NCBI GenBank assembly: GCA_018304145.1
Contig: JAGVWU010000002.1
Span: 1 to 47,408, forward strand
DNA: 47,408 nt
Origin: Candidatus Pacearchaeota archaeon
Lineage (GTDB): Archaea; Nanobdellota; Nanobdellia; Pacearchaeales; GW2011-AR1
Reading direction: 5' to 3'
The notes under the pieces were generated by a model. The model was not told the origin of the DNA. It did no database searches and worked only from the letters and a program-made list of their open reading frames with translations. Both the position numbers and the translations under genes were made by a program. Numbering within the stretch: the first letter of the stretch is position 1; each line of letters begins with the position of its first letter. This document shows positions 15,980 to 33,439 of the stretch, piece after piece.

Positions 15980-16317
15980 AATAGAGCTGATTTTTTGGAA
16001 AGTTATCTATGCTAATCAAAAACTTAACTTTCACCTTATTTTTAGTTAAATGTGTTCAAATTAGAAGTTTTTTAATTATTTAAATGTTATTATTTGGTTA
16101 ATTTTTTGAGATTAATTCTTGATTTAAAATTAGTTAAATTTAATTAAAAGCATAAAATTAAGCTATTTTTGATTAATTTTTAACTAATTTTACATTAATT
16201 ATGTAGTGTAATACTTAATCTATTTTTGATTAATTTTTAGGTTTTCCAAAGGTATTTGGTTTTCTTGAAATAATGCTCAAAAATTAGGTTTTTTTATTAA
16301 AAATAAGAAATTTTTGG

Positions 16318-16855
16318 GTGTTTGAACAGCGCTTTTTGACTGTTTTTCATCTGTTGCAATGTTTACAACAGATAAAATTTTATCTTTTTGCTAAAAAATC
16401 TTAGAAATATTGGGAGGTTTATTTGTTAATCAAAGACTCTATTTATCGACGCTATATTATAAGCTTTCTAAAATCTGTTCTTTTTATAAACGCAAGATTT
16501 ATAAATAAAGAGTTTCTTTATATTCTTATGTTTGGATTTTTTAGCAAAAAGATTGAAAAAAGAGAATTTGAGCAATTAAAACAGGCTGTTCAAACAGGCT
16601 TCAACAGCGCAAAACAAGATACAAACAGTCTAAACACTTGGGTTAGGCATTTAAAAGAGGAAGAAACTGGCTTAAAAAACAAGATGCTGAATATTTCTGA
16701 AGAAATTACGTCTATTAGAGAAGAGCTAGAAAGTTTGAAAAATGTGATGGCAATTGTTGGAGAGAGACCTGTGTTTAAACAGAAACAAACAGTGTTTGGA
16801 AAACAAACAGCGTTTAAAGGTGTTTTAAACAGTGTTCAAACAGCTGTTCAAACAG
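16318..16855. repeat. array of 12-bp palindromes STGTTYAAACAG
   Basis: Copies at 16318 (inverted), 16586, 16771, 16832, 16844; variant at 16821. Confidence 0.8.
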
Positions 16856-17142
16856 CATTTTTGGATAATTTAACAGCTACTGAAAGAGCTATTATTTTTG
16901 TTTTATTAAATTCAGATATGAAATTGAGTTATGAAGATCTGGCTGCGATGCTTGGAAAAGACAAAGCTACAATAAGAGGGCAAGTTAATGCAATAAGGCA
17001 GAAAAGTGAAGGTTTAATAGAAGAAATGGTTGGGGAAAACAACAAAAAAAGAGTTTTTATTCCTGAGAAAACAAAGGATATTTTATTAAAAACAAGAAAA
17101 GTCAGAATTAGGAAAAATCCTGAAGAAAAACAAGAATTGTAG
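16528..17142 (+). CDS. coiled-coil plus C-terminal winged-helix protein A (start at ATG 16528 preferred over TTG 16423)
   Basis: TTTATAAA at 16498-16505; heptad region; LTATERAI..LSYEDLAAMLGKDKATIRGQVNAI HTH. Confidence 0.8.
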   Translation: MFGFFSKKIEKREFEQLKQAVQTGFNSAKQDTNSLNTWVRHLKEEETGLKNKMLNISEEITSIREELESLKNVMAIVGERPVFKQKQTVFGKQTAFKGVLNSVQTAVQTAFLDNLTATERAIIFVLLNSDMKLSYEDLAAMLGKDKATIRGQVNAIRQKSEGLIEEMVGENNKKRVFIPEKTKDILLKTRKVRIRKNPEEKQEL

Positions 17143-17155
17143 TAGTTAAAAAACT

Positions 17156-17225
17156 AAAAAACAGGAAAAGTGAGTATTGTAGTGTATAAAAATACTTAAA
17201 AATAAGTGAAAAACAGGAAAAGTGA
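17156..17225. repeat. direct repeat AAAAACAGGAAAAGTGAG x2
   Basis: Near 17157 and 17209; AAAAGTGAG again near 17313. Confidence 0.65.
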
Positions 17226-17631
17226 GAGTTAAATTATAATAAAAATAAGACTAAATATTAAATTTAAATAAAATAGTGAGAAAAAATAATGAAAAGTATT
17301 AAAATAAAGATAAAAAGTGAGAGAAAGCAAGTTCATCTTTTGATGAGAATTGAATATTTACAAAAAAATAGAGGATTGATCCTTAGGTTTTAATTGGCTT
17401 AATTTTTGGTTTTTTAAGCCTTAATCTTTTATTTTTAAAGAAGAATTAAATCTTAGTTTAAACTAAGATTTAATTATAATCGTTACAACGAATATCTATT
17501 AACATAAATATGAGGAGTTTTAGAGATAAAAACTCTGATGTGGTTTAATAAGCTCTAAAGGGCTTAAAATAAGGTATATTAAGAACTTTAAGCTCTTAAA
17601 TTTTCAGAATCTTTATTAAAAATTCTGAGGT

Positions 17632-18330
17632 TTATAGCTCTCTTAATTGAAGAATAGTTGAAAGAGTTGCAATTTTTTTAAGTTCTTGAGATACAGACAG
17701 AAGAATTTTTTTGTTATTAATTTTCTGTTTTTTAATAGGAATCCCTTTTTTAATTATTTTTTGGGTATAATCTCGAATAGAACTTTCGCTTAACCCCAGT
17801 ATAGAAGCTATCTGAGGATAAGTTGTATTTTGAGGATCTTTTTCCTCCAGCTGATATATCGTCGAGAAAACAGTCATTTCTTGAGAAGTTAATTGTTTAA
17901 ATTTAAATCTTATTTCTTTTTTTAAATGATCAAGAGACTGAAGTATTTCAGAAGCTTTTATAAGGTCATTTTCAACATTTAAAGAGGTATTTTGTGTCTG
18001 TTGGATTGTTTGTTGGTTTGTCTGTCTGTCTGTTGGAACCCCTTTACTTCCTGTGGAAGTGTTTAAAATTGGGTTTTTTAACCCCTTTACTTCCTGTGGA
18101 ACTGTTGGATTGTCTGTTGGATATCTGTCTATTGTTGGATTTATCTGTTGGATTGTTGAACTATCTATTGGGTAATTATTGCTTTTAAAATTAAGCAAAT
18201 AGGTATAAAGTTCTTTTATAGAATTATTAATCTCATTTATATCGAGTTTTATTTTTGATATTTCTGTTTCAAGAACAAATATATCCTGCTTAACCTTAGA
18301 GAAAGCTATGCGAATTTGATCATTTTCCAT
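17632..18330 (-). CDS. coiled-coil plus C-terminal winged-helix protein B (ATG 18330; ORF track uses TTG 18348)
   Basis: Coiled-coil N-terminus, P/T/Q linker, LTSQEMTVFSTIY..TYPQIASILGLSESSIRDYTQKII HTH. Confidence 0.82.
   Translation of the reverse strand: MENDQIRIAFSKVKQDIFVLETEISKIKLDINEINNSIKELYTYLLNFKSNNYPIDSSTIQQINPTIDRYPTDNPTVPQEVKGLKNPILNTSTGSKGVPTDRQTNQQTIQQTQNTSLNVENDLIKASEILQSLDHLKKEIRFKFKQLTSQEMTVFSTIYQLEEKDPQNTTYPQIASILGLSESSIRDYTQKIIKKGIPIKKQKINNKKILLSVSQELKKIATLSTILQLREL
18037..18101 (-). promoter_or_regulatory. two identical ORB-like boxes inside a CDS
   Basis: TTCCACAGGAAGTAAAGGGGTT at 18037-18058 and 18080-18101; 19/22 identical to the box at 32609-32630. Confidence 0.75.
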
Positions 18331-18484
18331 TTGAGAGTATATAAACAAATCTTAAAAGATTTATTCAAGAGATTATTAATGAATTGAATTCATTAATTAT
18401 TTCATTCCTTTTATCTAAGTGATAAATGTTAAAGATTTATCTCAATTATTCAAGAAAAATTATTATATAAAGATTTATATGAAA

Positions 18485-18751
18485 TCATTGTTTAGATTTA
18501 TAAATCTCATAAACTTTATTGGACAAACGCCATTTAAGCCTTCTAGAAAAAGGCTGACCTTTTGGATTAGTTTTGATAGGGATAATAATGTTTTTTTCCT
18601 TGAGTTCAAAAAGAATTTTCTTAATGAATTCTTCGTCCCTTGCAATTTCCTTTGCTATTTCAGCTGTAAAAGGCTGTTTTGGAAATATTTGAAAAAGAAA
18701 GGAAAGAATCTGCTCTGCAATCTTGTCTTTTTTATCTTGGCTGATTTTCAT
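18485..18751 (-). CDS. small winged-helix protein
   Basis: FTAEIAKEIARDEEFIKKILFELKEKNII..RRLKWRL. Confidence 0.75.
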   Translation of the reverse strand: MKISQDKKDKIAEQILSFLFQIFPKQPFTAEIAKEIARDEEFIKKILFELKEKNIIIPIKTNPKGQPFSRRLKWRLSNKVYEIYKSKQ

Positions 18752-18950
18752 TTTTGTATAGTATATAGATAAAAGATAGTATATAAATAAATCTTAGTGA
18801 TTTATTCAAGCGATAAATATTGATGATAAATCCTCAATTATTTTATTTCTTTTATCCAAGATATATTTGCTGAGAATTAAAATTCATCAGCAGTTTAATA
18901 TTTAATTTGAATCTAAATAAGTTTTTAAAGTTGTTGATATTACCTAATAA

Positions 18951-21011
18951 ATGAAAAGAGGCAGGATTAGAACCAGAGTAAAGGAAAAAAAATCCATTAA
19001 AAAAGAGTTTCTTTTAGGATTATTCATCTTTTTATTTCTTATAACTGTTATTGGACTTAAAATTTTGGAAAAACCTGGAAAGGCTCCTGAAAGGTTTAAA
19101 GAAACTGGTGAATTAGGAAGTTTTGGAATTTCAAGATTAGAGCCTTATGATATAAGTAATTTAAAAATAATCAGGTATAATTGCAGTGATGAGAATTTAA
19201 GAGATATCTGGCATTCAATATTTGATTATGGGTCTGATGATATGATCATTATTTCAGATAAAGACAGTAGTGAAAACTGCAATAATTCTTTAATGCATAA
19301 AATACTTCCAAACAATTTAACATATTTTATTTATTTAAGGTATAATGAAGGGAAAAGCAGCATTAGCAGTGAAAGTTATAATTATTTTGGAAATTTTACA
19401 GAGGATTTTTTGAATTTGTTGGATAGTGTTGACTCATCAAACCTCTCAACATTTTATAACCTTATAAATGACAAGGCGAATATAATCTATGTTAAATCAA
19501 AAATGCAGGGAGAAAAAAATATAATTGATGATACTTCTGCTAATAACGAGTATAATTCTATCTTTAAAATACCAAATCAAACCTGGAGTTTTGTTAGTGA
19601 TAATGCTAACATTAACGGATATGAATTAACAGGCCCAATTTTTTATTATTTAAACATTAGTTCTGATAATACAAAGATAAATAAGTTTTCTTCTATAAGT
19701 TCAAATCAGACTTTGGATTATTTATACTATAGAGAATATTTCATTAAAAATATAAGCATTGTCAAAACTGCAAATATTCCAGATATAATTCTCAGGGGCA
19801 GCAAAAGACATTATGAAGCCATAAAATTAGAGAATTATTTCATAAATTTACCCTTAACTGATGAAAATTTGACTTTTGATTATGCTATTTCAATACCAGG
19901 GGCATTTAATATTTTAAAAAACAATTATTTCAGCATTAATCATAGTTTAGATTTTAATGCAGATTCTTCTTTAGGGGGGAGTTACTCTGTTAATATAACT
20001 CTAATCTACTTTGACTCGATTGCAACCAGCAATAATTTTAATGTAAGTATCTATGGATGTTTAGATAGTGAGGGAGTTTATGATATTTTTATGGGGGGAT
20101 ATTCTCAAAATTTAACAAACTCTGTTGCAGATAAATGTGAAAATAACAGCAATACAACTATAATAGAGTATTATTGTGGGATAAATGGAGAAATATTAAG
20201 AAATTCTACTCTATGCCCTTCAGATTATGTTTGTTATGAAGGTGCATGTATTGAAAATGGAAGCATTAATCATGCTCCTGTTTTTCTTGCTGATTCTTGC
20301 GATGGAATTGTTACAACAAAGAATACTAATTTTAAAATTGATATGAAGGGTTGTTTTAGAGACTCTGATAATGATAGCTTAACTTTCAGGCATGAGGTTT
20401 TAGAAAATGGAAGCTGGGTTATTGTAAGAAATCTAACATCTATAACTCTTATCCCCAATCAAAATTGGGTTGGAAAGGGAAGATTTAATATATATGCAAA
20501 AGATTCATTTAAAGAAACAAAAGGTATTGTTAATTTTGAGGTTATTGCTACAGGAACTCTTTCAACACAAAATGAACCTCTAATTATTATACCTGAAGAA
20601 TCAGAGGAATTTAAAATTACTGACCCTTATCCACTTTCTGAAAATTTAACTATTTCTGCAAATCAAAGCCTGAGTTTTTCAATTGGGAATACAGAATATG
20701 ACAGTATTGAATGGTATTTAGATGGATTGTTTGTTAAATCAAACTCTAATTCGCTTGATATTGATAGTTTTAATTCTGGAACTCATACTGTAAATGTAGA
20801 AGTTAAAAAAGGAGAATCAGTTGTTTCAAGAACTTGGACATTAGTTGTAAGAACACCTGAAGAACAAAAAAAATACCTTATAGGCAGAATAATATTCTGG
20901 TTAATAATCATGATTTTAAGTGTTTTAATAATATTTATTGTGCTGTTAATAATAAAAGAGATAAAAAAATTAAAATTTCAAAAGTTAAAGCAGGGATTGT
21001 TCTTATTATAA
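18951..21011 (+). CDS. membrane-anchored surface glycoprotein with Ig/cadherin-like domains
   Basis: N- and C-terminal TM helices, many NxS/T sequons, NHAPVF..FRDSDNDSLTF, EWYLDG..GTHTVNVEV. Confidence 0.75.
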   Translation: MKRGRIRTRVKEKKSIKKEFLLGLFIFLFLITVIGLKILEKPGKAPERFKETGELGSFGISRLEPYDISNLKIIRYNCSDENLRDIWHSIFDYGSDDMIIISDKDSSENCNNSLMHKILPNNLTYFIYLRYNEGKSSISSESYNYFGNFTEDFLNLLDSVDSSNLSTFYNLINDKANIIYVKSKMQGEKNIIDDTSANNEYNSIFKIPNQTWSFVSDNANINGYELTGPIFYYLNISSDNTKINKFSSISSNQTLDYLYYREYFIKNISIVKTANIPDIILRGSKRHYEAIKLENYFINLPLTDENLTFDYAISIPGAFNILKNNYFSINHSLDFNADSSLGGSYSVNITLIYFDSIATSNNFNVSIYGCLDSEGVYDIFMGGYSQNLTNSVADKCENNSNTTIIEYYCGINGEILRNSTLCPSDYVCYEGACIENGSINHAPVFLADSCDGIVTTKNTNFKIDMKGCFRDSDNDSLTFRHEVLENGSWVIVRNLTSITLIPNQNWVGKGRFNIYAKDSFKETKGIVNFEVIATGTLSTQNEPLIIIPEESEEFKITDPYPLSENLTISANQSLSFSIGNTEYDSIEWYLDGLFVKSNSNSLDIDSFNSGTHTVNVEVKKGESVVSRTWTLVVRTPEEQKKYLIGRIIFWLIIMILSVLIIFIVLLIIKEIKKLKFQKLKQGLFLL

Positions 21012-21071: not shown

Positions 21072-21143
21072 ATGTCTGGAATGTTTGTTGCATTCCAGAG
21101 CATCCTAAAAACCCGAATATTGATAAACTAAGAGGGGTTTTTA
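21072..21143 (+). promoter_or_regulatory. two-hairpin leader before lhr
   Basis: TCTGGAATG/CATTCCAGA (21075-21099) and TAAAAACCC/GGGTTTTTA (21106-21143). Confidence 0.45.
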
Positions 21144-24552: not shown

Positions 24553-24909
24553 ATGATTGATTATAAAATAAAGGAAAGTTATAGAAACACAGGTTTAAGA
24601 TGTTTTAAAGTTAGTTTTTTTGATTTCTTGGAAAATTTGGGAGAAAGATTTGAAGATAGGGGGCAAGAAGACAGAAGAGGCATAGTTTCTTGGGGATATT
24701 ATAATGATGATACAAGATTAAGGATTTTTCATTCTCGAAAAGTCCTTCATGGAGTTCATTTTTTATATGAAGGGAATAATCCTGAAATAGATTTAAAAGA
24801 ATTAAGAGGTTATCTTGAGGAAATTGGTTTGAAAAAAACCAAAGTAATAACCGAAAAATTGGAAAAAGAAGTTGAAATTCATTTTCAAGAAATAGAAACA
24901 ATTCCTTAA
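24553..24909 (+). CDS. hypothetical protein
   Basis: 118-aa ORF; TTTTTAAA upstream. Confidence 0.65.
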   Translation: MIDYKIKESYRNTGLRCFKVSFFDFLENLGERFEDRGQEDRRGIVSWGYYNDDTRLRIFHSRKVLHGVHFLYEGNNPEIDLKELRGYLEEIGLKKTKVITEKLEKEVEIHFQEIETIP

Positions 24910-27900
24910 AACCACTTTTCAATAGACTCCTGCTTCTCAGTTTCTTTGCCAAAAATGCTTTCAATGTATCTTTTTGTTAACTCCAAATCCTGCTTAATAT
25001 ACGGAGGAACATTGAAATTTTTTGTCAAATCCAGAGCAGGTTCCAAATATTTGATTATGCTTCCATAGGAGATTGTAAAAATCAATTTAGGATTTCCACA
25101 ATTAGTGCATTTTCCATTTAAAGGAGGTCTTCGAAAAATTTCATTGCATTTTCCGCATCTAAAATTCTGCTGAGTAAATTTTCTCAGATTACCTTTCAAA
25201 TCTTTCATAAAATGCCTCTCTATTATTAATCTTGCAACATCTGACTGGTCAACGCTTCTTAATTTTGTGCATAATAACATTTGAGAAAAAACTTTTTCTT
25301 TCATTGTTGGAAGAGTTTTATAAGAAGAGCAGGTTGCTCCTTGATTAAAATTATCAGTATCATGTGTAAAGCCTGTATTAATATAAGGATCTTCCCCTCT
25401 TCCTATTCTTTGTTTGACCATCTCAATCTTGATTTCACTTGAATGAAATTTTTGCTCTGCCTTTTCATATAAATCCAGAGGATAATTATTCACTAATTCA
25501 AAATCAAGAATCTGGTCATCGACTTCCCTTGCATAAATCTTTCCGTTTAAAACCAAAGGAGCATCTTGAGTTCCCCCCCTATGAGAAGGAAGAAAAGCCC
25601 GTGAAAAATTTATTAAAACATCCAGTAAAAGCATCATTGCTGCTTCATCTCCATCACAGTCGCGGCGCATTGCAGCATGCATATAAGGGCTTGCTAATAA
25701 TCCTTGAACTTTAGAAAAACCAATTATTCTGCAAATGACTCCTGCACAATTATGGGGCGCCATGCAAACACCTAATTGCCCTACTAAATCCTCTCTTTTT
25801 TTAATGTTATAAAAAGATGGGAGATTATAGAGTTTGATTAAAAGCTCATCTAAAAATTTTGCAACATTAATAAAAACATTATCTGCTTTTTCATCTCCGC
25901 ATTCAGAATTACAGGGTATTATAATATCATGAGGCTTTAATTCCAAAATTTGTTCATCATTTATTAATTCTTCCCTTAGACAATCTTGGGTATAACCAAG
26001 TTCTCTTAATTTTTCAACAGAAACTTCGATTTCTTTTGGTTTAAAATGAGAAATAGGAAGCTCTGTCATGTCATATCTTATTGTCCCGTCTTTATTAACA
26101 CAAAGATGATATTTGGCTCTTAAAATTCCTTTAATTAAATCTTCTATATTATGGTTTTCAGAACTAGTGCCCCTAATGCCCTTAATTAATTCCGGGATAT
26201 CTGTTTTGAGATAATTTAATTTTTGTCTTGATTTATCTAAATAATGTTTAATGTCTATTTTTGTATTTTTAAATTTGTTTTGTTTTTGATGAATCTGACA
26301 GATTCCATCCATTTCTCTTTTGCAGAGATTGCAAAAATGTTTTTCGCTTGTTCTTTGACTGCAGATTTCACAAACCCTGTAGATAGTTTCTTTTTTGCAA
26401 CTATCACAGTAATAAAATGGAAAATCTCCATGAACATAGCCTATTTCCAAGGCAGCATTAACGCTCCTTAATTTTCCTCCTTCTTTTCCAACTGGAAAAA
26501 GAACGTTTGGACTGCCGGTTAATTTTCTTAATTTGGCTTTTTCAGGCCTACCCATTCTGGAACCGATAAACTCTCCTGCCTTGTCTTTTATTTTAAATTT
26601 AGAAAGTTTGTTTATAACTTCCAAAGCCTGAGTTTCTGACTTAAAGTCAAAATCAAGATTTAATTCACAGGAATATTTATCAAATCCAAGATTAATTAGA
26701 AGTGCTTTGGTATCAATTTCATTTAAAATAACATTTTCTATATGAATTTCATGAGGAATACCTAAAAGCTCCAAAGCTCTTTTTCCTAATTGAAATCTTT
26801 GTTTTTCAGAAGAATTAAATGGAAAGAGGAGTTTTTCATCACTGATTCTTGAATGATTGAACCAGTCCGCAAACCCTAAAAACTCTTCATAATTTATCTG
26901 GGTCCAATAAAAAATATAAGAAGGGTGCAGGGGAATGGAATATTTTTGAGATAGTTCTATTGATTCTTCCAGAGTCACATTATAATAATCTTTAATTTTT
27001 CCTCCTGCTTTTTCCAACTCCAGATTCCACCATTCTTCAACATAACCTGGCTTGATTAAAACAGAGTTTCGGTTCATTACATCTCCCAAAGGAAATAAAA
27101 TATCTCCCAGATAAATAATTTCTTTTATATCTTTGTAAAGTTTTTTTGCTTCTTCATAAGAACTAAGTTTTTTAACAGAATCGTTTTCAAGTTTAACAAT
27201 AGGGCCATCAATTAAATCACAAGGAGTAATGCAACATCCTTTTGTTGGTTTTTCTATTTTTAACTGAGTTCCTGTTGCAATAAAATTGTCTGTAATTGCC
27301 ATTGTTGCTGGATGAATAGATGCTGCTGAGAATCCTGCAACTCTGCTTCTTCCATATCTAAAACGAAAACCTTTTCCAGGATGTCCAAAAACAGGACGTC
27401 CTGCAACTAAATCTTTTATATAAGTTGGACTTGAATCTGTTTTTCCAGTGTCTCTTTTTTCATGCAATTCAACATATTCCTCAAGCCATTCCCAGTCTTT
27501 GATTTGAAATCCATTTTTTTGAGCTCCTTTTAATAATCTTAAAATTTTCTTTGCTTTTTGAGCCAAGCCTTCCCCTATAATAAGGCAAAAACCCCCTCTA
27601 ATAAAATCAGTCTCAATTCTTGAAAGATTCTTAAAATTAGAAACTTCTCTTTTTTCAGTAGGCTCTCCTGTAATCTGAATTGGCATATTTTTTCCAATAA
27701 AAAAAGCTTCTTGTTCTGTTGGAAGGTATTGAAGATTGTTTATTCTTTCATGATAATCATAAAGTTCTGTCACTGTTCTTTTGGCTTCTTGTTCTGTTGG
27801 GTCATATCGTGCAAAACCAAATAATTGCCTGATATAATCTATAATTAAAACTCCGATTCCCGCGGCAGTTGTCCCTGCACTTCTTATTGGCCCTGAAAAA

Positions 27901-28346
27901 TAAGCTTTAATGTAAGTTTCTCCTTTTTGAGTTTTTTCAGTTTTAATTCCAGTATAACCTTCAATTGGAGAACTTACCACCCCCAGAGTTGTATATGCAA
28001 AGCCTACTCTAATTCCTGCATCCATTGCTTGCATTTGATTTTCAAATTTGCAATATTTTTCCTGCGCTATTTCTTCGGCAATTTTTAAACTCACAGAGGT
28101 TTCTAATGCCCCATATTGTTTTTCAAGCTCCAATATCCTATTGATAATATCCTCTCTATCTAACTGGGAATAAATTGTAGCGATAAGACGAACTACCTTT
28201 GCAGCCATTGTTAAAGCAAGAGGCACTTCAACTTCATCTTTTGGGTCGAGACCTTTAGCTCTTGCTAATCTTGCTATTGAATAATTTTTTTCAATTTCCT
28301 TTCCTAGACTTTCAAAGTATAGCTCAGTTTCAGGTGCGAGGGACAT
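24906..28346 (-). CDS. polC: DNA polymerase D large subunit DP2
   Basis: FSGPIRSAGTT, RFRYGRSR, RMGRPEKA, KDGTIRYD, catalytic RRDCDGDE, RGGTQDAPLVL, zinc fingers; no intein seen. Confidence 0.97.
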   Translation of the reverse strand: MSLAPETELYFESLGKEIEKNYSIARLARAKGLDPKDEVEVPLALTMAAKVVRLIATIYSQLDREDIINRILELEKQYGALETSVSLKIAEEIAQEKYCKFENQMQAMDAGIRVGFAYTTLGVVSSPIEGYTGIKTEKTQKGETYIKAYFSGPIRSAGTTAAGIGVLIIDYIRQLFGFARYDPTEQEAKRTVTELYDYHERINNLQYLPTEQEAFFIGKNMPIQITGEPTEKREVSNFKNLSRIETDFIRGGFCLIIGEGLAQKAKKILRLLKGAQKNGFQIKDWEWLEEYVELHEKRDTGKTDSSPTYIKDLVAGRPVFGHPGKGFRFRYGRSRVAGFSAASIHPATMAITDNFIATGTQLKIEKPTKGCCITPCDLIDGPIVKLENDSVKKLSSYEEAKKLYKDIKEIIYLGDILFPLGDVMNRNSVLIKPGYVEEWWNLELEKAGGKIKDYYNVTLEESIELSQKYSIPLHPSYIFYWTQINYEEFLGFADWFNHSRISDEKLLFPFNSSEKQRFQLGKRALELLGIPHEIHIENVILNEIDTKALLINLGFDKYSCELNLDFDFKSETQALEVINKLSKFKIKDKAGEFIGSRMGRPEKAKLRKLTGSPNVLFPVGKEGGKLRSVNAALEIGYVHGDFPFYYCDSCKKETIYRVCEICSQRTSEKHFCNLCKREMDGICQIHQKQNKFKNTKIDIKHYLDKSRQKLNYLKTDIPELIKGIRGTSSENHNIEDLIKGILRAKYHLCVNKDGTIRYDMTELPISHFKPKEIEVSVEKLRELGYTQDCLREELINDEQILELKPHDIIIPCNSECGDEKADNVFINVAKFLDELLIKLYNLPSFYNIKKREDLVGQLGVCMAPHNCAGVICRIIGFSKVQGLLASPYMHAAMRRDCDGDEAAMMLLLDVLINFSRAFLPSHRGGTQDAPLVLNGKIYAREVDDQILDFELVNNYPLDLYEKAEQKFHSSEIKIEMVKQRIGRGEDPYINTGFTHDTDNFNQGATCSSYKTLPTMKEKVFSQMLLCTKLRSVDQSDVARLIIERHFMKDLKGNLRKFTQQNFRCGKCNEIFRRPPLNGKCTNCGNPKLIFTISYGSIIKYLEPALDLTKNFNVPPYIKQDLELTKRYIESIFGKETEKQESIEKWF

Positions 28347-28399
28347 TTTTGTCTCGTGATTCCAAATTTTTATTTAATTTTTCAGGTTCTAATTTGAAA

Positions 28400-29077
28400 T
28401 CACTCGTAACCTCCTTTAATATGTTCTAAGAGTTCCTGCCAACTTTCAACAGGAGTAATATGATTTTGAGGATTATTTTGATTTTGATTATCTCCATTTA
28501 ATTTTCTTAATCTACTCCAATCTCTTTCATTCCAAGGTTTTCTTAATAGCAAAACATTTACTCTTCTTTGAGCAATAGTTTCTGCATAAGCAAGACAATC
28601 TTCAACAAAATAATCTAAGCCTAATTCCTGACAAATAGTTGCTTTTGAAAAACTTGCTCCTTCTCCATCATGAAAATCATTGGAATGATGAACTGTTGAA
28701 GGAGTAGCTGGAAATCTTGTTCTAAGTAATCCAATGGTTTTTACTCTAAACATTAAAGGCCTTGAGGTAACGATTTCTAAACATCCATCTGATAAAGATG
28801 CTAATTCTAAAACTCCTTGTTGTGCTCCTGGAACTAAAGGCATTTCGTCAAATTCAGGGGAAGCATAATATTCTTGAAATAATCTCATAGCCTCTGGTTT
28901 ATCTTTTCCAATTCCCAGTTCCCATAGCCAATAAGATTTAATGTCTTCAAATCTAAGTCTGGTTCCATATCTCTGATTATGAAAATTAACAAAACTTGGG
29001 ATGGTATCTGGAATAACATCATCATAATCAAGACCTATTTTTAATTTTTTTTTGTTCATTTTATTTTTTATCCTCAC
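28400..29077 (-). CDS. HAD-family 5'(3')-nucleotidase (NT5C-like)
   Basis: IGLDYDDVI, IVTSRP, K..C..LGLDYFVED, KPWN. Confidence 0.85.
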   Translation of the reverse strand: MRIKNKMNKKKLKIGLDYDDVIPDTIPSFVNFHNQRYGTRLRFEDIKSYWLWELGIGKDKPEAMRLFQEYYASPEFDEMPLVPGAQQGVLELASLSDGCLEIVTSRPLMFRVKTIGLLRTRFPATPSTVHHSNDFHDGEGASFSKATICQELGLDYFVEDCLAYAETIAQRRVNVLLLRKPWNERDWSRLRKLNGDNQNQNNPQNHITPVESWQELLEHIKGGYE

Positions 29078-29604
29078 AATTTCAAATCCTCATTTAATTT
29101 TTCAGATTCTGATTTGGAATTGCTCGTCCATTCATTTTGTTTAGTTCCTTTAAATAAATTTTCAAGCATTTCAAGCTCTTCATAAATTCCTTCGATTAAG
29201 TCATAATCCTTTGCTTCTTCCAAAGAAACCCAGGCATGAGAAGTCATATCATTGCTTAAATTAACATCCCCTGATAAATAATCTGCATATAAGCTAATAA
29301 CTAAAACAGGAATATTGTCAGGGCGTATGAATGTCATGCTTGTCAAGTATTTTATATTTTCAATCTCCAAACTTGTTTCTTCTTTTATTTCTCTTTTTAA
29401 TAAAACCTCTAAAATATTATACCAATGCTCTTTTGTATCTTTAGGTTTATTAACATAATCATTAATATCTAATTTTCCTCCTGGAACTGTCCATTTTCCT
29501 GGAAAGGCTTTTTCCCAATCTGCTCTCTTTGTTATTAAATATTTTCTATCTTTGATTATAATTCCAGTTGCAACAACATAATGAAATTTATTTGAATCAG
29601 GCAT
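29074..29604 (-). CDS. NUDIX hydrolase
   Basis: GKWTVPGG..LKREIKEET. Confidence 0.9.
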   Translation of the reverse strand: MPDSNKFHYVVATGIIIKDRKYLITKRADWEKAFPGKWTVPGGKLDINDYVNKPKDTKEHWYNILEVLLKREIKEETSLEIENIKYLTSMTFIRPDNIPVLVISLYADYLSGDVNLSNDMTSHAWVSLEEAKDYDLIEGIYEELEMLENLFKGTKQNEWTSNSKSESEKLNEDLKL

Positions 29605-31222
29605 TTTTCACCTCTTTGCCTTGCTGACAATTAATCTCTTTATTATCCTCTAAACCTTCTGGTTCAGTAAAATCCAGGATTTTTATTTCCCTAGTTTTAA
29701 GATTCAATATTGGAACTTTGCAAGGATCTGGAATGTTCCCAACTTTTTCTTCAAATGCTGTTATTGACTGCCAGCAGGAATTGCAAATTATTATTATTCC
29801 ATGGTAATTATCAATATCTGTTCTGTGCAAATCTGCTGTTGTAATTATATCTGGAACTTCTTTAATCAAAAGAGGATCATCAATTGCATGAGGAATATAA
29901 GTCATATCTCCATGAGAAGGAGCCAAATGCCTCCTTAATAATAAATGTTTGACAACTTTTGCCGGATAATGATGTCCATTAATTAACCTTAATTCTTCTA
30001 TTTCTCCCATTATTGGATGCATGCTTGCGCCATGATACATCAAAATTTTAATTCCAGATTTTTCATTTTGAGACTCAATCTCAATCAAGCTTGGATTGCT
30101 TACTAAAAATAGATTTGGAATTTGATGAAGTGCATAACCAAAATCAGTTCCTATTGGTGGCTGAGGCTCTGCAACCCTGACTGCATCATGCTGTCCTGCA
30201 CAATGAATAATTGATATATGTTGAGGTATTTGCTTATAGAAATCTGCGAGCTTTTCATATTGCTGAGTTATGTCTTTTATTGCAAGGTCTTTTTCCTGCC
30301 CTGGATAAACTCCGACTCCGTCTATGGTATCTCCCACAACAAAAATATATTTTATTTTTTTAAGCAGCTGTTTTTGAGGTTCTGTACAGTTTTCTCCATT
30401 AAGCCAGTTTATGAAATTCTGAAAACTTGTTTCTAAAAAGTTTTTTGAACCTATGTGTATATCTGAAATAAAAAGAGAATAAATTTCATTTTCTGTCTTG
30501 TGTTTTTCAGTTAAAAAAGAGTCTGGATAAAAAAAATCATTGACATAAAGAAAATCCTTGGTTCCTGAACATTTAAATCCTATAACATCATCCAAAAGAA
30601 TTTCCTTTGTTTTTTCATAAATCTCTGGCTTGTTTTGAGTAATCAGGAGCTTGGTTCTGTCAGTTAAATCTTCCACTTCCAAAATAACATTTTTATTTTT
30701 TGTCAGGTTTTTACTTGTAACAATTCCTATTATTGAGAAATTTCTGCTGTTTCCTATTATCTTATCAATAGAGATTAAATTTTCAAGTTCTGGCTTTTGC
30801 TGAAGAAGGGATTTTATGAAAAGAAAACGATTTCTAAAATGCTTGACAAAATCTTTGACTTCTAATTTTTGCGAGGCTAAAACCGGGGAAGAGAGAATTT
30901 TTATAAGAGGTTTGTTCTCTAAAATTCCCTTAGAATCTATAATAGATTCTTTTTTAACTTCAACCAAAATAGAAATATTTACAAAAAATTTTTCAACTAA
31001 TTTCTTTTTTTCATTATTTAGCTCAAATAAAATAGGTTTTATTTTTTCCAGATTCTCATTAACCAAAGTCTTTGTTATTAATTTCTTCTTGGAAATGCTA
31101 GCTATTTTGTCTATTATCTCGTTCGCTATTTCCTCATTTCCAAGTTCATTTAGAAAATTAAACATTTCCTGGTCTAAAAGAAAACCTTTTTCTATAAATA
31201 GCTTCAAAATATTTTGTGACAT
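29597..31222 (-). CDS. polB: DNA polymerase D small subunit DP1 (3'-5' exonuclease)
   Basis: OB fold; SDIHIGS, GDTIDGVGVYPGQ, GQHD, YHG, HLAPSHG, DLH. Confidence 0.95.
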   Translation of the reverse strand: MSQNILKLFIEKGFLLDQEMFNFLNELGNEEIANEIIDKIASISKKKLITKTLVNENLEKIKPILFELNNEKKKLVEKFFVNISILVEVKKESIIDSKGILENKPLIKILSSPVLASQKLEVKDFVKHFRNRFLFIKSLLQQKPELENLISIDKIIGNSRNFSIIGIVTSKNLTKNKNVILEVEDLTDRTKLLITQNKPEIYEKTKEILLDDVIGFKCSGTKDFLYVNDFFYPDSFLTEKHKTENEIYSLFISDIHIGSKNFLETSFQNFINWLNGENCTEPQKQLLKKIKYIFVVGDTIDGVGVYPGQEKDLAIKDITQQYEKLADFYKQIPQHISIIHCAGQHDAVRVAEPQPPIGTDFGYALHQIPNLFLVSNPSLIEIESQNEKSGIKILMYHGASMHPIMGEIEELRLINGHHYPAKVVKHLLLRRHLAPSHGDMTYIPHAIDDPLLIKEVPDIITTADLHRTDIDNYHGIIIICNSCWQSITAFEEKVGNIPDPCKVPILNLKTREIKILDFTEPEGLEDNKEINCQQGKEVKNA

Positions 31223-31235
31223 TTTTCATTTTGAA

Positions 31236-32438
31236 TTAATTTAAATCAAGAGAGCTTATTAAAATATCTCTAGATTTCGTAACGAGATTTTCCGGAATAG
31301 CCAATTTTATCTCTCTCATTCTTCCTTGCCTGCCTTTGCTTATTACTCTTGCACTTATCAATCCAATCATATCAAATTCTGCTAAAATATCGCTCACTCT
31401 CCTTTGAGTCAGGGCTTCGTTATTGGTTTTTTTGCATAAATCGTAGTAAAAATCAAAAACATCTCCTGTAAAAATACCTTCTTTGAATTTATCAGTCAAA
31501 TCAAATATGGAAAACAAAACTAACTGGAATTGTTTTGGAGCATTTTCTATTATATTCAAAATTTTATCCCTTTCAATTTTATCATTAGCTTCGTCTATAT
31601 GTTTTATTTCAATTTTTGAATTTGATATTCTTTCAGCTATTTCTCCTGCTACTCTCAATAAATCCAAAGCTCTTCTGGCATCTCCATGCTCTCTGGCTGC
31701 ATAAGCTGCACATTTGGCTATGACTCCATCTGAAACAACTCCTGATTTAAAAGCTTCTTCAGCTCTTTTTCTTAGAATGTCCTGCAGTTGAAGTGCATTA
31801 TAAGGAGGAAAAACAATTTCCTCTTCTGAAAGAGAACTTTTTACTCTTGGATCTATCATTTCTAAAAATTTTACATCATTGCTTATGCCTATTATAGAAA
31901 TCTGGGTTTTTCCAAGCTCAGAATTTAGTCTCATTAAATTGTATAAAAAATCATCAGAAATTTTTTTAACAGCCTGGTCTATTTCATCTAAGATAATGAT
32001 AAATAGCTTTTCTTTGTTTTTTTCAATCATATCTATAAATTTTTTATAAACTTCATCGGTTGGAAGCCCTGTTTTTGGAACTTCCCCCCCGAGTTTGTTT
32101 ATTAATTCAGCAAAAATACGATATTCTGTGTCTGCGACTTTTTTAAGTTTGCAATTTATATATTCTATTCTTAAACTATCAGTATCTTCAGAACGTTTAG
32201 TTAATTCATTTGCAACATGCCTGACAGAAATAGTTTTTCCAGTTCCAGTGAGTCCATATACAAATAAATTGCTGGTTTTTTGTCCAAGCAAACTTGGAGC
32301 CAAGATAGAAGCTATGTGTTCTATTTCTTTATCTCTATGTGGAATGGTTTCTGGAGAATAATTAGCTTGAAGGACCTGTTTATTTTTAAACAAGCTTCTA
32401 TCACCTACTGAATTAAAAATTTTATCTAGATTAACCAT
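31236..32438 (-). CDS. cdc6: Orc1/Cdc6 replication initiator
   Basis: GLTGTGKT, LDEID, DPRVKSSL, FPPY, HGDARRALDLLR, C-terminal WH with GRQGR. Confidence 0.97.
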   Translation of the reverse strand: MVNLDKIFNSVGDRSLFKNKQVLQANYSPETIPHRDKEIEHIASILAPSLLGQKTSNLFVYGLTGTGKTISVRHVANELTKRSEDTDSLRIEYINCKLKKVADTEYRIFAELINKLGGEVPKTGLPTDEVYKKFIDMIEKNKEKLFIIILDEIDQAVKKISDDFLYNLMRLNSELGKTQISIIGISNDVKFLEMIDPRVKSSLSEEEIVFPPYNALQLQDILRKRAEEAFKSGVVSDGVIAKCAAYAAREHGDARRALDLLRVAGEIAERISNSKIEIKHIDEANDKIERDKILNIIENAPKQFQLVLFSIFDLTDKFKEGIFTGDVFDFYYDLCKKTNNEALTQRRVSDILAEFDMIGLISARVISKGRQGRMREIKLAIPENLVTKSRDILISSLDLN

Positions 32439-33178
32439 TTTTCACCTTTTTTATTTGAGTAATAATTAAAAATATTTATGGTTTATAAATATGATTGTAT
32501 TTTAAAGATTGACCTTGATTTCTTATAAAAAAATACTATAAAAATTGGAAAAACCTCAATAAAACAAGAAAATTATAAAAAATAATAGAAGTTATGAAAT
32601 TTAACACCAACACCATTATTTCCTGTGGAAAACTATAAGAATATGTTAGAAGAATGAATTAAGAATGAATTAAGAATGAATTAAAAGAAATTCAAAAAAG
32701 ATAAATAAATAAGCTATAAAATATAATATATATTATAAAATATATATCTCAATATATATTTAAATATAGATTATTAAAAATATTTATTAAATTATTAATT
32801 TTTATAAAAAAACTGGTTTTATCGAATGAAATTAATATATACTATAAATTAATATATACTATATAATATAATAAAGTTTATAAATAAAAATAAAAAAAAG
32901 AAACCTTTATTTTAGTTTATAAAGGTTTCTATAAGAAAAGAAGGGGTGGGTGGTTAAAGGAGGATAAATGAAATTAAGGAAAAACTGAAGTAAATTAAGG
33001 AAAAACTGAAGTAAATTAAGGAAAAACCTCTTGAAAACAACAGAAAAAACCAGGAAAAAATTAATAAAAACAAGAAAAAAATGTATAAACTCGGGTTAAG
33101 TTTTGCTTAAATATGTTGTTATTAATTATGAGAACAAATCACAGAAAACTTTATAAAGAAATTTTTTATAACTAATCT
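32439..33178. other. candidate oriC / cdc6 control region
   Basis: 740-bp intergenic region; ORB-like box 32609-32630; near-pure AT tract about 32700-32900; degenerate inverted box 32927-32947; tandem repeats (11-mer x3 at 32650, 21-mer x2.7 at 32971). Confidence 0.65.
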
Positions 33179-33439
33179 ATGGCTATTGATAAAAGACCAC
33201 ATAAAGAAGTATTAAATAAACCTGTTGTTACAAAAGAAGGTAAAAAGTTAGGTATTGTAAAGGACATGACTTTTGAGACTAGGACTGGGGAATTGATACA
33301 CATTGTTTTAAGAGATTCAACACCTTATGCAGTTCAATTGAGTCTTGAAAAATCCCAGCAAGGTGAAACTCTTATACCTTACAACTCTATAATAGCAATC
33401 GGCGATTTTGTTGTTGTTTCTGAAGAAGATTTGGTTTAA
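33179..33439 (+). CDS. PRC-barrel domain protein
   Basis: LNKPVVTKEGKKLGIVKDMTFETRTG..IPYNSIIAIGDFVVV. Confidence 0.9.
   Translation: MAIDKRPHKEVLNKPVVTKEGKKLGIVKDMTFETRTGELIHIVLRDSTPYAVQLSLEKSQQGETLIPYNSIIAIGDFVVVSEEDLV

What the first reader, a model, noticed from the sequence alone, without database searches (positions are those of the whole stretch)
17998..18152. Origin-recognition-box-like sites and iterons hidden inside a winged-helix gene
Seen: two identical 22-mers TTCCACAGGAAGTAAAGGGGTT lie 43 nt apart, so they translate in different frames (VPQEVKG and STGSKGV), which points to DNA-level rather than protein-level constraint. They match the box upstream of cdc6 at 19/22. Five CTGTTGGA repeats (17998, 18030, 18102, 18114, 18145; two frames) and CTGT tracts surround them. 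Known: archaeal ORBs have the form TCCA..GGAA..plus a G-string and bind Orc1/Cdc6; phage lambda O carries its origin iterons inside its own gene; Sulfolobus WhiP is a wHTH origin-binding protein. Inference: an origin-in-gene module in which wHTH protein B and Cdc6 co-occupy this CDS, 14 kb from cdc6. With gene A and the small wHTH at 18485-18751 it may form an undescribed DPANN replication-initiation/segregation locus.
Basis: partly seen in the sequence, partly recalled or inferred. Interest (0 to 1): 0.85.

Follow-up and report, generated by a model that had tools for sequence, protein, structure and literature searches.

The report
Initiator-binding boxes written inside a gene
The best matches in this small archaeal genome to the DNA box recognised by the replication initiator lie inside the coding sequence of a conserved DNA-binding-protein gene near the replication origin, and relatives keep them there even at silent codon positions.

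Summary
The two identical 22-mers (18037-18058 and 18080-18101, minus strand, 43 nt apart, two reading frames) are canonical archaeal origin-recognition boxes (ORBs). Apart from one 19/22 copy upstream of cdc6, the 1.15 Mb assembly has no other match with 4 or fewer mismatches.

An ORB lies on the sense strand of the same gene ("B": coiled coil, disordered linker, winged helix) in all 38 of 41 relatives where B was found, and in 11 of 12 more distant loci of the same class. Silent codon positions are fixed to the ORB (Ser TCC 35/36, Gly GGG 34/36). The second copy at exactly 43 nt is an addition confined to this genus. Short repeats with periods of 4 or 11 nt flank the box and are read in several frames.

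The "origin inside the gene" reading is not supported. A classical oriC, with inverted ORBs around an 11% GC stretch, lies upstream of cdc6. The B region is 38% GC and has no such stretch. In relatives B lies only about 1.5-2.5 kb from oriC.

Best reading: a conserved accessory Orc1/Cdc6-binding module of the origin region, embedded in linker codons. Binding and function are untested. I found no description of it in the papers searched.

The parts
18037..18058 (-). ORB-b: the ancestral intragenic origin-recognition box, TTCCACAGGAAGTAAAGGGGTT, in codon phase 2 (peptide S-T-G-S-K-G-V)
   Evidence: A box in this phase is present in all 36 B genes analysed and in 11 of 12 loci outside the order.
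18080..18101 (-). ORB-a: a second, identical box 43 nt upstream in the gene, in codon phase 1 (V-P-Q-E-V-K-G). It is an addition confined to this genus.
   Evidence: 19 of 21 same-genus genes, always 43 nt apart; 51 of 80 loci.
18059..18079 (-). 21-nt spacer between the two boxes (24% GC)
17998..18036 (-).
   Evidence: period 4/8/12 in 21 of 21 same-genus genes; Asp GAC 28/28.
18102..18152 (-). Flank on the dyad side: three TCCAACAG units (18102, 18114, 18145) read in two frames
   Evidence: T[CT]C[AG]ACA units at 18.8 per kb around the box against 1.3 per kb in the rest of the gene.
17632..18348 (-). Gene B. The alignment puts the likely start at ATG 18330 (232 aa). Architecture: N-terminal long helix, disordered linker (aa 53-115, holding all the DNA elements), helix, then a C-terminal MarR/ArsR-like winged helix.
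16423..17142 (+). Gene A: convergent with B, same architecture, winged-helix domain distantly homologous to B's
   Evidence: hhalign probability 72%, E 3.5e-5.
18485..18751 (-). Gene S: 88-aa winged-helix protein, always immediately upstream of B
31236..32438 (-). cdc6/orc1 initiator gene (Orc1-1 type)
32609..32630 (-). oriC proximal ORB (19/22 match to the gene-B boxes; G-string GGTGTT)
32631..32926 (.). Probable duplex-unwinding element (11% GC). It holds the only cluster in the window of 60-nt stretches with 7% GC or less (32688-32904).
32927..32948 (+). oriC distal ORB in inverted orientation (TTCTATAAGAAAAGAAGGGGTG)
24906..31222 (-). Genes downstream of cdc6: PolD small subunit DP1 (29597-31222), NUDIX, NT5C, PolD large subunit DP2 (24906-28346)

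Best explanation
The two 22-mers are genuine origin-recognition boxes, that is, binding sites for the genome's Orc1/Cdc6 initiator. They are written into the codons for the disordered linker of a conserved coiled-coil/winged-helix gene (B) that belongs to the neighbourhood of the replication origin. They form an accessory, probably high-affinity, initiator-binding module of the origin region, not a separate origin. Replication most likely starts at the classical oriC upstream of cdc6.

Shown here: the constraint acts on DNA; the box is conserved across the order and in further families of the class; it is linked to oriC and always points away from it; the gene-B site has no unwinding element. 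Inferred: that Orc1/Cdc6 is the binding protein, and what the site does. My preferred inference is that initiator occupancy is coupled to transcription of B. Bound Orc1 would block RNA polymerase inside B, and transcription through B would clear Orc1 from the box. The site might also hold initiator next to oriC. The flanking period-4 and period-11 repeats are DNA-level features of unknown role.
For: 1. Sequence. The box has the mini-ORB dyad TTCCA-NN-GGAA followed by a G-string. This matches the published euryarchaeal ORB consensus GTTCCAGTGGAAAC-AAA----GGGGG (PMC1868953, passage seen) and is 19/22 identical to the cdc6-proximal box. The initiator is of the Orc1-1 type (2qby_A 1e-111).

2. Specificity. 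In G000 only 3 sites match the degenerate pattern with 2 or fewer mismatches (two in B, one at oriC); the reversed control gives 0.

3. Conservation. All 38 of 41 relatives in which B was found carry a hit with 2 or fewer mismatches inside B. So do 80 of 80 further loci, 8 of 8 other genera of the family, and 11 of 12 loci outside the order, where B is only 26-32% identical.

4. Silent sites. Ser is TCC in 35/36 (9.4% elsewhere in B); Gly is GGG in 34/36 (12.7% elsewhere) and in 19/19 in the second copy. Asp is GAC in 28/28 (27.6% elsewhere).

5. The same DNA appears in phase 2, in phase 1 (genus copy, always 43 nt away), and inverted in five genes, four of them from other families.

6. The classical origin is elsewhere. 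39 of 42 cdc6-upstream regions have inverted ORBs (chance about 0.08 hits per 900 bp). In the window they flank an 11% GC stretch, while the B linker is 38% GC.

7. Linkage. B lies 5-15 kb from cdc6 in the genus. It lies 1.3-2.5 kb from cdc6, with oriC directly beside S-B, in 12 of 80 loci and in 6 of 8 other genera. It lies 6-10.5 kb away in 7 of 10 genomes outside the order.

8. The elements fall in a linker with pLDDT below 50 (aa 53-115), where coding constraint is weakest.

9. In 4 of 4 metagenome runs, contigs of many other organisms pile up on 18005-18058 only.
Against: There is no binding or initiation data of any kind; Orc1 binding is inferred from sequence alone. The boxes in B match the consensus better (0-1 mismatch) than those at oriC (2-4 mismatches). 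That could mean B holds the primary site. Second boxes were gained independently, direct at 43 nt or inverted at 57-89 nt, which resembles the build-up of an origin. Most ORB positions are non-silent, so a conserved peptide (S-x-G-N-x-G-V-P-T-D-R-Q-T) could share the constraint. The roadblock/coupling idea has no direct support. Skew analysis on a 620 kb contig of a relative did not resolve the origin.
Confidence: 0.55

Rival explanations
1. One reading: gene B holds a working second origin, or the true origin. Orc1/Cdc6, perhaps with protein B, loads MCM at the intragenic boxes.
For: The best ORB matches in the genome are here. The 43-nt spacing is strictly kept. Second boxes were gained independently, including inverted pairs in L039, L042, L043 and L046. 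On the relative's 620 kb contig, the detrended MK disparity has its maximum at 449 kb and stays near that level until about 480 kb; B lies at 484 kb.
Against: Most lineages have a single box. In this genus the two boxes are direct, not inverted. There is no A/T-rich stretch: the region is 38% GC against 29% for the window, and the only extreme A/T cluster in the window lies between the cdc6-proximal boxes. 39 of 42 cdc6-upstream regions show the classical inverted-ORB layout. In Sulfolobus oriC1 both inverted boxes flanking the unwinding element are required (PMC12141716, Introduction).
Confidence: 0.12
2. The box and its flanking repeats are bound by the locus's own winged-helix proteins (B, A or S). 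This would be a centromere-like or autoregulatory site inside the binder's own gene, like parS inside spo0J or the lambda origin inside gene O (both recalled, not looked up).
For: Three winged-helix genes are always clustered here. B's recognition helix (SESSIRDY) is nearly invariant, like the box. Short repeats are enriched 14-fold around the box.
Against: The box is the pan-archaeal Orc1 target and recurs at oriC in the classical arrangement. The flanking units differ between lineages (TCCAACA, TTCGACA, AGGCAAC and others) while B's helix does not change. No conserved operator of this type lies upstream of S or B.
Confidence: 0.15
3. The site is an initiator sink. A high-affinity Orc1/Cdc6 site next to oriC is duplicated right after initiation and holds or inactivates initiator, as datA does for DnaA in E. 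coli (recalled). It would have no role in expression of B.
For: The match to the consensus is stronger than at oriC. The site is always linked to oriC. These genomes and cells are very small, so one or two sites could matter (inference).
Against: One or two boxes make a very small sink. This does not explain why the site must lie inside a gene or why it is flanked by repeats.
Confidence: 0.1
4. The conserved feature is a peptide motif in the linker of protein B, and its resemblance to an ORB is a coincidence.
For: S-x-G-N-x-G-V-P-T-D-R-Q-T is the best-conserved part of the linker, and the ancestral box is always in the same codon phase.
Against: Silent positions are fixed to rare codons. The same DNA is kept in a second frame and on the opposite strand, giving unrelated peptides. 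The same 22-mer type lies in non-coding oriC. The flanking repeats have periods of 4 and 11 nt.
Confidence: 0.03

Closest known systems
Archaeal origin-recognition boxes at oriC1-type origins (Sulfolobus, Pyrococcus, Haloferax)
   Same: Dyad core plus G-string. An Orc1-1-type initiator gene lies nearby, followed by PolD genes as in Pyrococcus (that comparison is recalled). The relatives' cdc6-upstream regions have the classical inverted boxes around an A/T-rich stretch.
   Different: These boxes lie inside a protein-coding sequence, 1.5-15 kb from oriC, single or in direct orientation, with no unwinding element, and they match the consensus better than the origin's own boxes do.
Phage lambda origin inside gene O (recalled; not checked in a paper here)
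   Same: Initiator-binding repeats are written into the part of a gene that encodes a flexible inter-domain linker. The DNA and the protein are under joint constraint.
   Different: In lambda the host gene encodes the initiator that binds the repeats, and the site is the origin. Here the host gene encodes a MarR/ArsR-like winged-helix protein, the box is of the Orc1/Cdc6 type, and the origin appears to lie elsewhere.
parS inside spo0J/parB of Bacillus subtilis, and the datA DnaA-box cluster of E. coli (both recalled)
   Same: A conserved protein-binding site near the origin that is not the origin itself. For parS, it also lies inside a gene for a DNA-binding protein.
   Different: There is no ParA/ParB system here and no evidence that B binds the site. 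The element has one or two boxes, not a cluster.
GT-stretches that follow some ORBs in Haloferax volcanii ori-pHV1/4 (PMC1868953, Discussion passage)
   Same: A simple G/T-rich tract lies directly after an ORB. Here it is (CTGT)n on the strand opposite the box.
   Different: The Haloferax tracts are intergenic. Here the tract is translated (TDRQ repeats), or is replaced by 11-nt tandem repeats read in three frames.

Membership tests
Archaeal ORB (Orc1/Cdc6 recognition box) | Mini-ORB dyad core (TTCCA-NN-GGAAA type) | tested here: met
   Consensus quoted from PMC1868953.
Archaeal ORB (Orc1/Cdc6 recognition box) | G-string 3' of the core | tested here: met
   AGGGGTT is kept in nearly all copies. 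It lies closer to the core than in the euryarchaeal consensus.
Archaeal ORB (Orc1/Cdc6 recognition box) | An Orc1-1-type initiator is encoded in the genome, and related boxes lie next to its gene | tested here: met
Archaeal ORB (Orc1/Cdc6 recognition box) | Bound by Orc1/Cdc6 | not testable with these tools
   No protein-DNA assay or model is available here.
Archaeal chromosomal replication origin (oriC) | Boxes in inverted orientation flanking an A/T-rich unwinding element | tested here: not met
   In gene B the boxes are direct, the spacer is 21 nt and the region is 38% GC. The feature is met at 32609-32948 upstream of cdc6.
Archaeal chromosomal replication origin (oriC) | Replication starts there (skew, marker frequency, initiation-point mapping) | tested here: inconclusive
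   Cumulative skews on G034:C1 (620 kb) show no clean turning point. The detrended MK extremes at 137 kb and 449 kb cannot separate B (484 kb) from cdc6 (497 kb).
Iterons of plasmid or phage origins | Several direct repeats in helical register | tested here: inconclusive
   Two boxes 43 nt apart. 11-nt tandem repeats in 7 of 15 genes from other families, period 4/8/12 in 21 of 21 same-genus genes. The units differ between lineages.
Iterons of plasmid or phage origins | Bound by the initiator encoded at the same locus | not testable with these tools
   No assay. A fold of Cdc6 with B gave no verdict (see Tried and rejected).
Origin inside the initiator's own gene (lambda O type) | The host gene encodes the replication initiator | tested here: not met
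   B has no AAA+ or initiator domain, only a long helix and a MarR/ArsR-like winged helix.
Origin inside the initiator's own gene (lambda O type) | The sites lie in codons of a flexible linker | tested here: met
   pLDDT is below 50 over aa 53-115; the boxes encode aa 77-98.
WhiP/Cdt1-like origin-binding winged-helix proteins (for protein B) | Sequence homology to Cdt1/WhiP | tested here: not met
   No Cdt1-type Pfam family at E up to 0.1 or among the 25 families shown (of 53 found) for the 35 members scanned. The PDB profile search found only coiled coils and generic HTH regulators. WhiP itself was not compared directly.

The most novel reading that the evidence does not exclude
These DPANN archaea carry a gene-embedded initiator switch. 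The chromosome's strongest Orc1/Cdc6 boxes are encoded in the disordered-linker codons of an origin-linked winged-helix gene. Initiator occupancy and transcription of that gene would then gate each other, forming a replication-transcription timer. In lineages that gained a second box, the site might even fire as an auxiliary origin. The flanking period-4 and period-11 repeats would help the initiator spread or the DNA open. They might also switch B on and off by slippage, as the frameshift in G022 hints.
Probability: 0.25. Interest if true: 0.85.

Novelty: new variant of a known kind. Interest (0 to 1): 0.75.

Why it matters
How replication starts in DPANN archaea has hardly been studied: I found no paper that holds both "origin recognition box" and DPANN. 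This locus gives a sharply defined, deeply conserved 22-bp target plus a candidate oriC that can be tested in vitro with recombinant Orc1/Cdc6. It is also a clean natural case of dual coding, a protein-binding DNA site kept for a very long time inside an open reading frame by using a disordered linker. It also shows that initiator boxes in archaea are not confined to intergenic origins, which matters for origin-prediction tools that scan intergenic DNA only.

Tried and rejected
Skew. I fetched 620,000 bases of G034:C1 and computed GC, AT, RY and MK cumulative curves. Raw GC skew rises monotonically, following gene-strand bias. The detrended curves give broad extremes (GC minimum 469 kb; MK 137 kb and 449 kb) that cannot separate B (484 kb) from cdc6 (497 kb). 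The window's own profile follows gene strand only.

RNA element. An Rfam scan of 16000-19200 at E up to 1 gave one chance-level miRNA hit outside the boxes. I did no covariation test, because the dyad arms are invariant.

Identity of protein B. The PDB profile search found only coiled coils and generic HTH regulators. Foldseek gave weak MarR/ArsR/CodY hits at E about 1e-3. The ESM Atlas returned only uncharacterised Nanobdellota HTH clusters. B could not be placed in any specific family.

Operator search. In the window, the regions upstream of S and B share a palindromic repeat. Relatives show only ordinary TATA-like boxes about 30 nt upstream of the ATG, so no conserved operator was found.

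Cdc6 with B. One fold of alignments A2 and A1 returned "no answer". This is neither for nor against binding.

Expression. No RNA holder was listed among the 20 runs, so there is nothing on transcription. The runs laid were contigs only, and no insertions or deletions were listed in the (ACAG)n tract, which says little.

Co-variation. By eye, the centre dinucleotide and the spacer of the B boxes and the oriC boxes vary independently within genomes.

Literature. ORB + DPANN gave 0 papers. ORB + archaea + "within the coding" gave 0. "Replication origin" + Pacearchaeota gave 1 unrelated G-quadruplex paper. ORB + Orc1 + intragenic + archaea gave 1 unrelated mammalian paper. Supplementary files were not consulted.

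Full report
**What is in the window.** The sequence at 17998-18152 lies inside ORF 17632-18348 on the minus strand, called gene B here. The 22-mer TTCCACAGGAAGTAAAGGGGTT occurs exactly at 18037-18058 and 18080-18101 (minus strand, 43 nt start to start). It occurs once more with three mismatches at 32609-32630, 171 nt upstream of ORF 31236-32438; no shuffle gave any match. That ORF is cdc6/orc1: Pfam Cdc6_lid and Cdc6_C, and its closest solved chains are the Sulfolobus Cdc6-1 chain 2qby_A (1e-111) and the Aeropyrum chain 2v1u_A (5e-94). In the whole assembly (1,146,784 bases, 70 contigs, 29.6% GC) no further site has 4 or fewer mismatches. The two 22-mers lie in codon phases 1 and 2 and encode VPQEVKGL and TSTGSKGV.

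**The sites are ORBs.** The box has the dyad TTCCA-NN-GGAA followed by a G-string. [quoted passage not shown] ORBs from one species can be bound by Cdc6 of another (PMC4640148, passage). Each ORB binds one Orc1-1 monomer with a defined polarity (PMC12141716, Introduction).

**The feature is not strain-specific.** Gene B was found in 38 of 41 related genomes: the window's own, 22 of 24 others of the same genus and 15 of 16 other genera of the same order. A degenerate pattern built from the copies, YTCCANNGGAANNNNRGGGGTT with up to 2 mismatches, hits inside gene B in all 38 of those genomes. It finds no site of this kind away from cdc6 in the three without a detectable B (coordinates compared). 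The reversed-pattern control gave 0-4 hits per genome.
- In 19 of 21 same-genus B genes analysed there are two boxes, always exactly 43 nt apart; two genes (L017, L018) have one box.
- Among 80 further loci from public genomes, 80 have at least one box in B and 51 have the 43-nt pair. Some of these loci are the same genomes as the G handles. Most of their record titles (69 of 80) name Pacearchaeota, Woesearchaeota, Nanoarchaeota or Nanoarchaeia.
- Eight of 8 other genera of the family carry a box with 0-2 mismatches on B's sense strand. So do 11 of 12 loci from other families of the class, where B is only 26-32% identical to the window's protein.

**The constraint acts on DNA.** The ancestral box is always in codon phase 2 (S-[IT]-G-N-x-G-V). 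This raised the rival that a peptide is what is conserved. Three results contradict that.
- Silent positions are fixed. The Ser codon is TCC in 35 of 36 genes, against 9.4% of the other Ser codons in these genes. The second Gly is GGG in 34 of 36, against 12.7% elsewhere. In the phase-1 copy, GGG is used in 19 of 19. The Asp that follows is GAC in 28 of 28, against 27.6% elsewhere, and the Gln is CAG in 22 of 34, against 22.7%.
- The same DNA is kept in a different frame in the genus copy. It also occurs inverted, with 2-3 mismatches, in L032, L039, L042, L043 and L046, where it gives unrelated peptides.
- In six genomes the two copies are identical to each other but differ between genomes: the window, G010, L053, L063, L102 and L109. 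This points to gene conversion between the copies.

Independently, contigs of many other organisms in four metagenome runs pile up only on 18005-18058. Summed depth there is 60-1100 against 3-8 on the flanks, and up to 28 contigs in one run carry the GGAAAT variant.

**The flanks.** The 36 ORB-centred 232-nt segments hold 157 units (18.8 per kb), against 24 units (1.3 per kb) in the rest of the genes. In 22 of 36 genes the units lie in two or three frames. Directly after the G-string the genus has an (ACAG)n tract, read as TDRQ repeats, with period 4/8/12 in 21 of 21 genes. In other families the same place holds period-11 tandem repeats in 7 of 15 genes and period-4/8 repeats in 7 of 15. The lag identity reaches 0.80, against a 95th percentile of 0.51 in control windows. 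The period-11 units differ by lineage (TCCAACACATC, TTCGACAACAG, AGGCAACAG and others) and are read in all three frames. These are DNA-level repeats. Their role is unknown; Haloferax has GT-stretches after some ORBs.

**Where the origin is.** Within 900 bp upstream of cdc6, 39 of 42 loci have one or two boxes in the cdc6 orientation plus an inverted box further out (4 or fewer mismatches). Chance gives about 0.08 hits per 900 bp by the reversed pattern. In the window these boxes are 32609-32630 (-) and 32927-32948 (+). The 296 bp between them is 11% GC and holds the only cluster in the 47 kb of 60-nt stretches with 7% GC or less (32688-32904). The B linker is 38% GC. The genes downstream of cdc6 are PolD DP1, NUDIX, NT5C and PolD DP2. 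The classical oriC is therefore upstream of cdc6, and the gene-B site lacks the defining origin features.

**Linkage to oriC.** The trio A-> <-B <-S is conserved throughout.
- B lies 5-15 kb from cdc6 in the genus and the order.
- The layout A-> <-B <-S [oriC] cdc6-> is contiguous in 12 of 80 loci and in 6 of 8 other genera of the family.
- In 7 of 10 genomes outside the order the main cdc6 lies 6-10.5 kb from B. Two more have it at a contig edge, and in one it was not found.
- In every linked case checked, B is transcribed away from oriC, so the box's G-string points away from it.

The window's 14 kb distance reflects an inverted cdc6-PolD block plus inserted genes.

**Protein B.** AlphaFold2 on the 35-sequence alignment gives a helix at residues 2-51, a disordered stretch at 53-115 (pLDDT below 50), a helix at 116-145 and a winged helix at 149-213. 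All the DNA elements fall in the disordered part. Fold and family searches give only generic MarR/ArsR/HTH_24-type matches. The winged helix of A is distantly homologous to that of B; S gave no significant match.

**Reading.** The evidence fits an accessory Orc1/Cdc6-binding module of the origin region, embedded in linker codons. Initiator binding is inferred from sequence and context; function is inferred only. I favour coupling between initiator occupancy and transcription of B, or local retention of initiator. A second origin, a site for the locus's own winged-helix proteins, and a pure sink remain possible. A purely protein-level explanation is contradicted by the silent-site counts.

**Novelty.** I found no description of ORBs in DPANN archaea or inside coding sequence in the papers searched. 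The comparisons with lambda O, parS in spo0J and datA are recalled from memory, not checked here.

Noticed in passing
L182 (G022:C101) about 780-1450: In this relative, gene B is split by a frameshift that falls exactly in the (ACAG)n tract after the box. The N-terminal part ends ...TDRQTDRQTDSF*, and the rest continues in the next frame. This could be slippage-driven on/off switching or an assembly error.
   Followed up: partly
G016:C1:7908-10199 and G015:C65:4550-6823: In two relatives cdc6 lies in an open frame of 778 or 763 aa and matches the query in two pieces. This suggests an intein-sized insertion.
   Followed up: no
window 32650-32682 and 32977-33029: The oriC intergenic region holds an 11-nt tandem repeat (AAGAATGAATT, three copies) and a 21-nt tandem repeat (AGGAAAAACTGAAGTAAATTA, two to three copies) outside the ORB pair.
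   Followed up: no
window 16560-16870 (gene A): The linker and N-terminal part of gene A are built from (T/C)CAAACAG units. Many are in-frame 12-nt repeats (AVQT), and related units (TGTCCAAACAG six to seven times) recur in A genes of distant relatives.
   Followed up: partly
window 18349-18420 and 18790-18860: The regions upstream of B and S in this genome share a repeat of about 45 nt containing a small palindrome (AAATCTT..AAGATTT). It is not conserved in relatives, which show only TATA-like boxes about 30 nt before the ATG.
   Followed up: partly
window 21143-23743 and 33179-33439: An Lhr-type helicase gene (DEAD, WH_Lhr, DEAD_assoc) lies between the S-B cluster and the PolD genes. An 86-aa PRC-barrel gene lies directly on the far side of oriC.
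   Followed up: no
several relatives: Many genomes of the class carry a second, divergent Cdc6/Orc1 paralogue (26-37% identical) on another contig. None was found in the window's own assembly at E 1e-20 or better.
   Followed up: no
L077 and L088: Two loci with a typical B gene and box come from records titled as a Dojkabacteria bacterium and an Iainarchaeum. These are probably mis-binned or mislabelled contigs.
   Followed up: no
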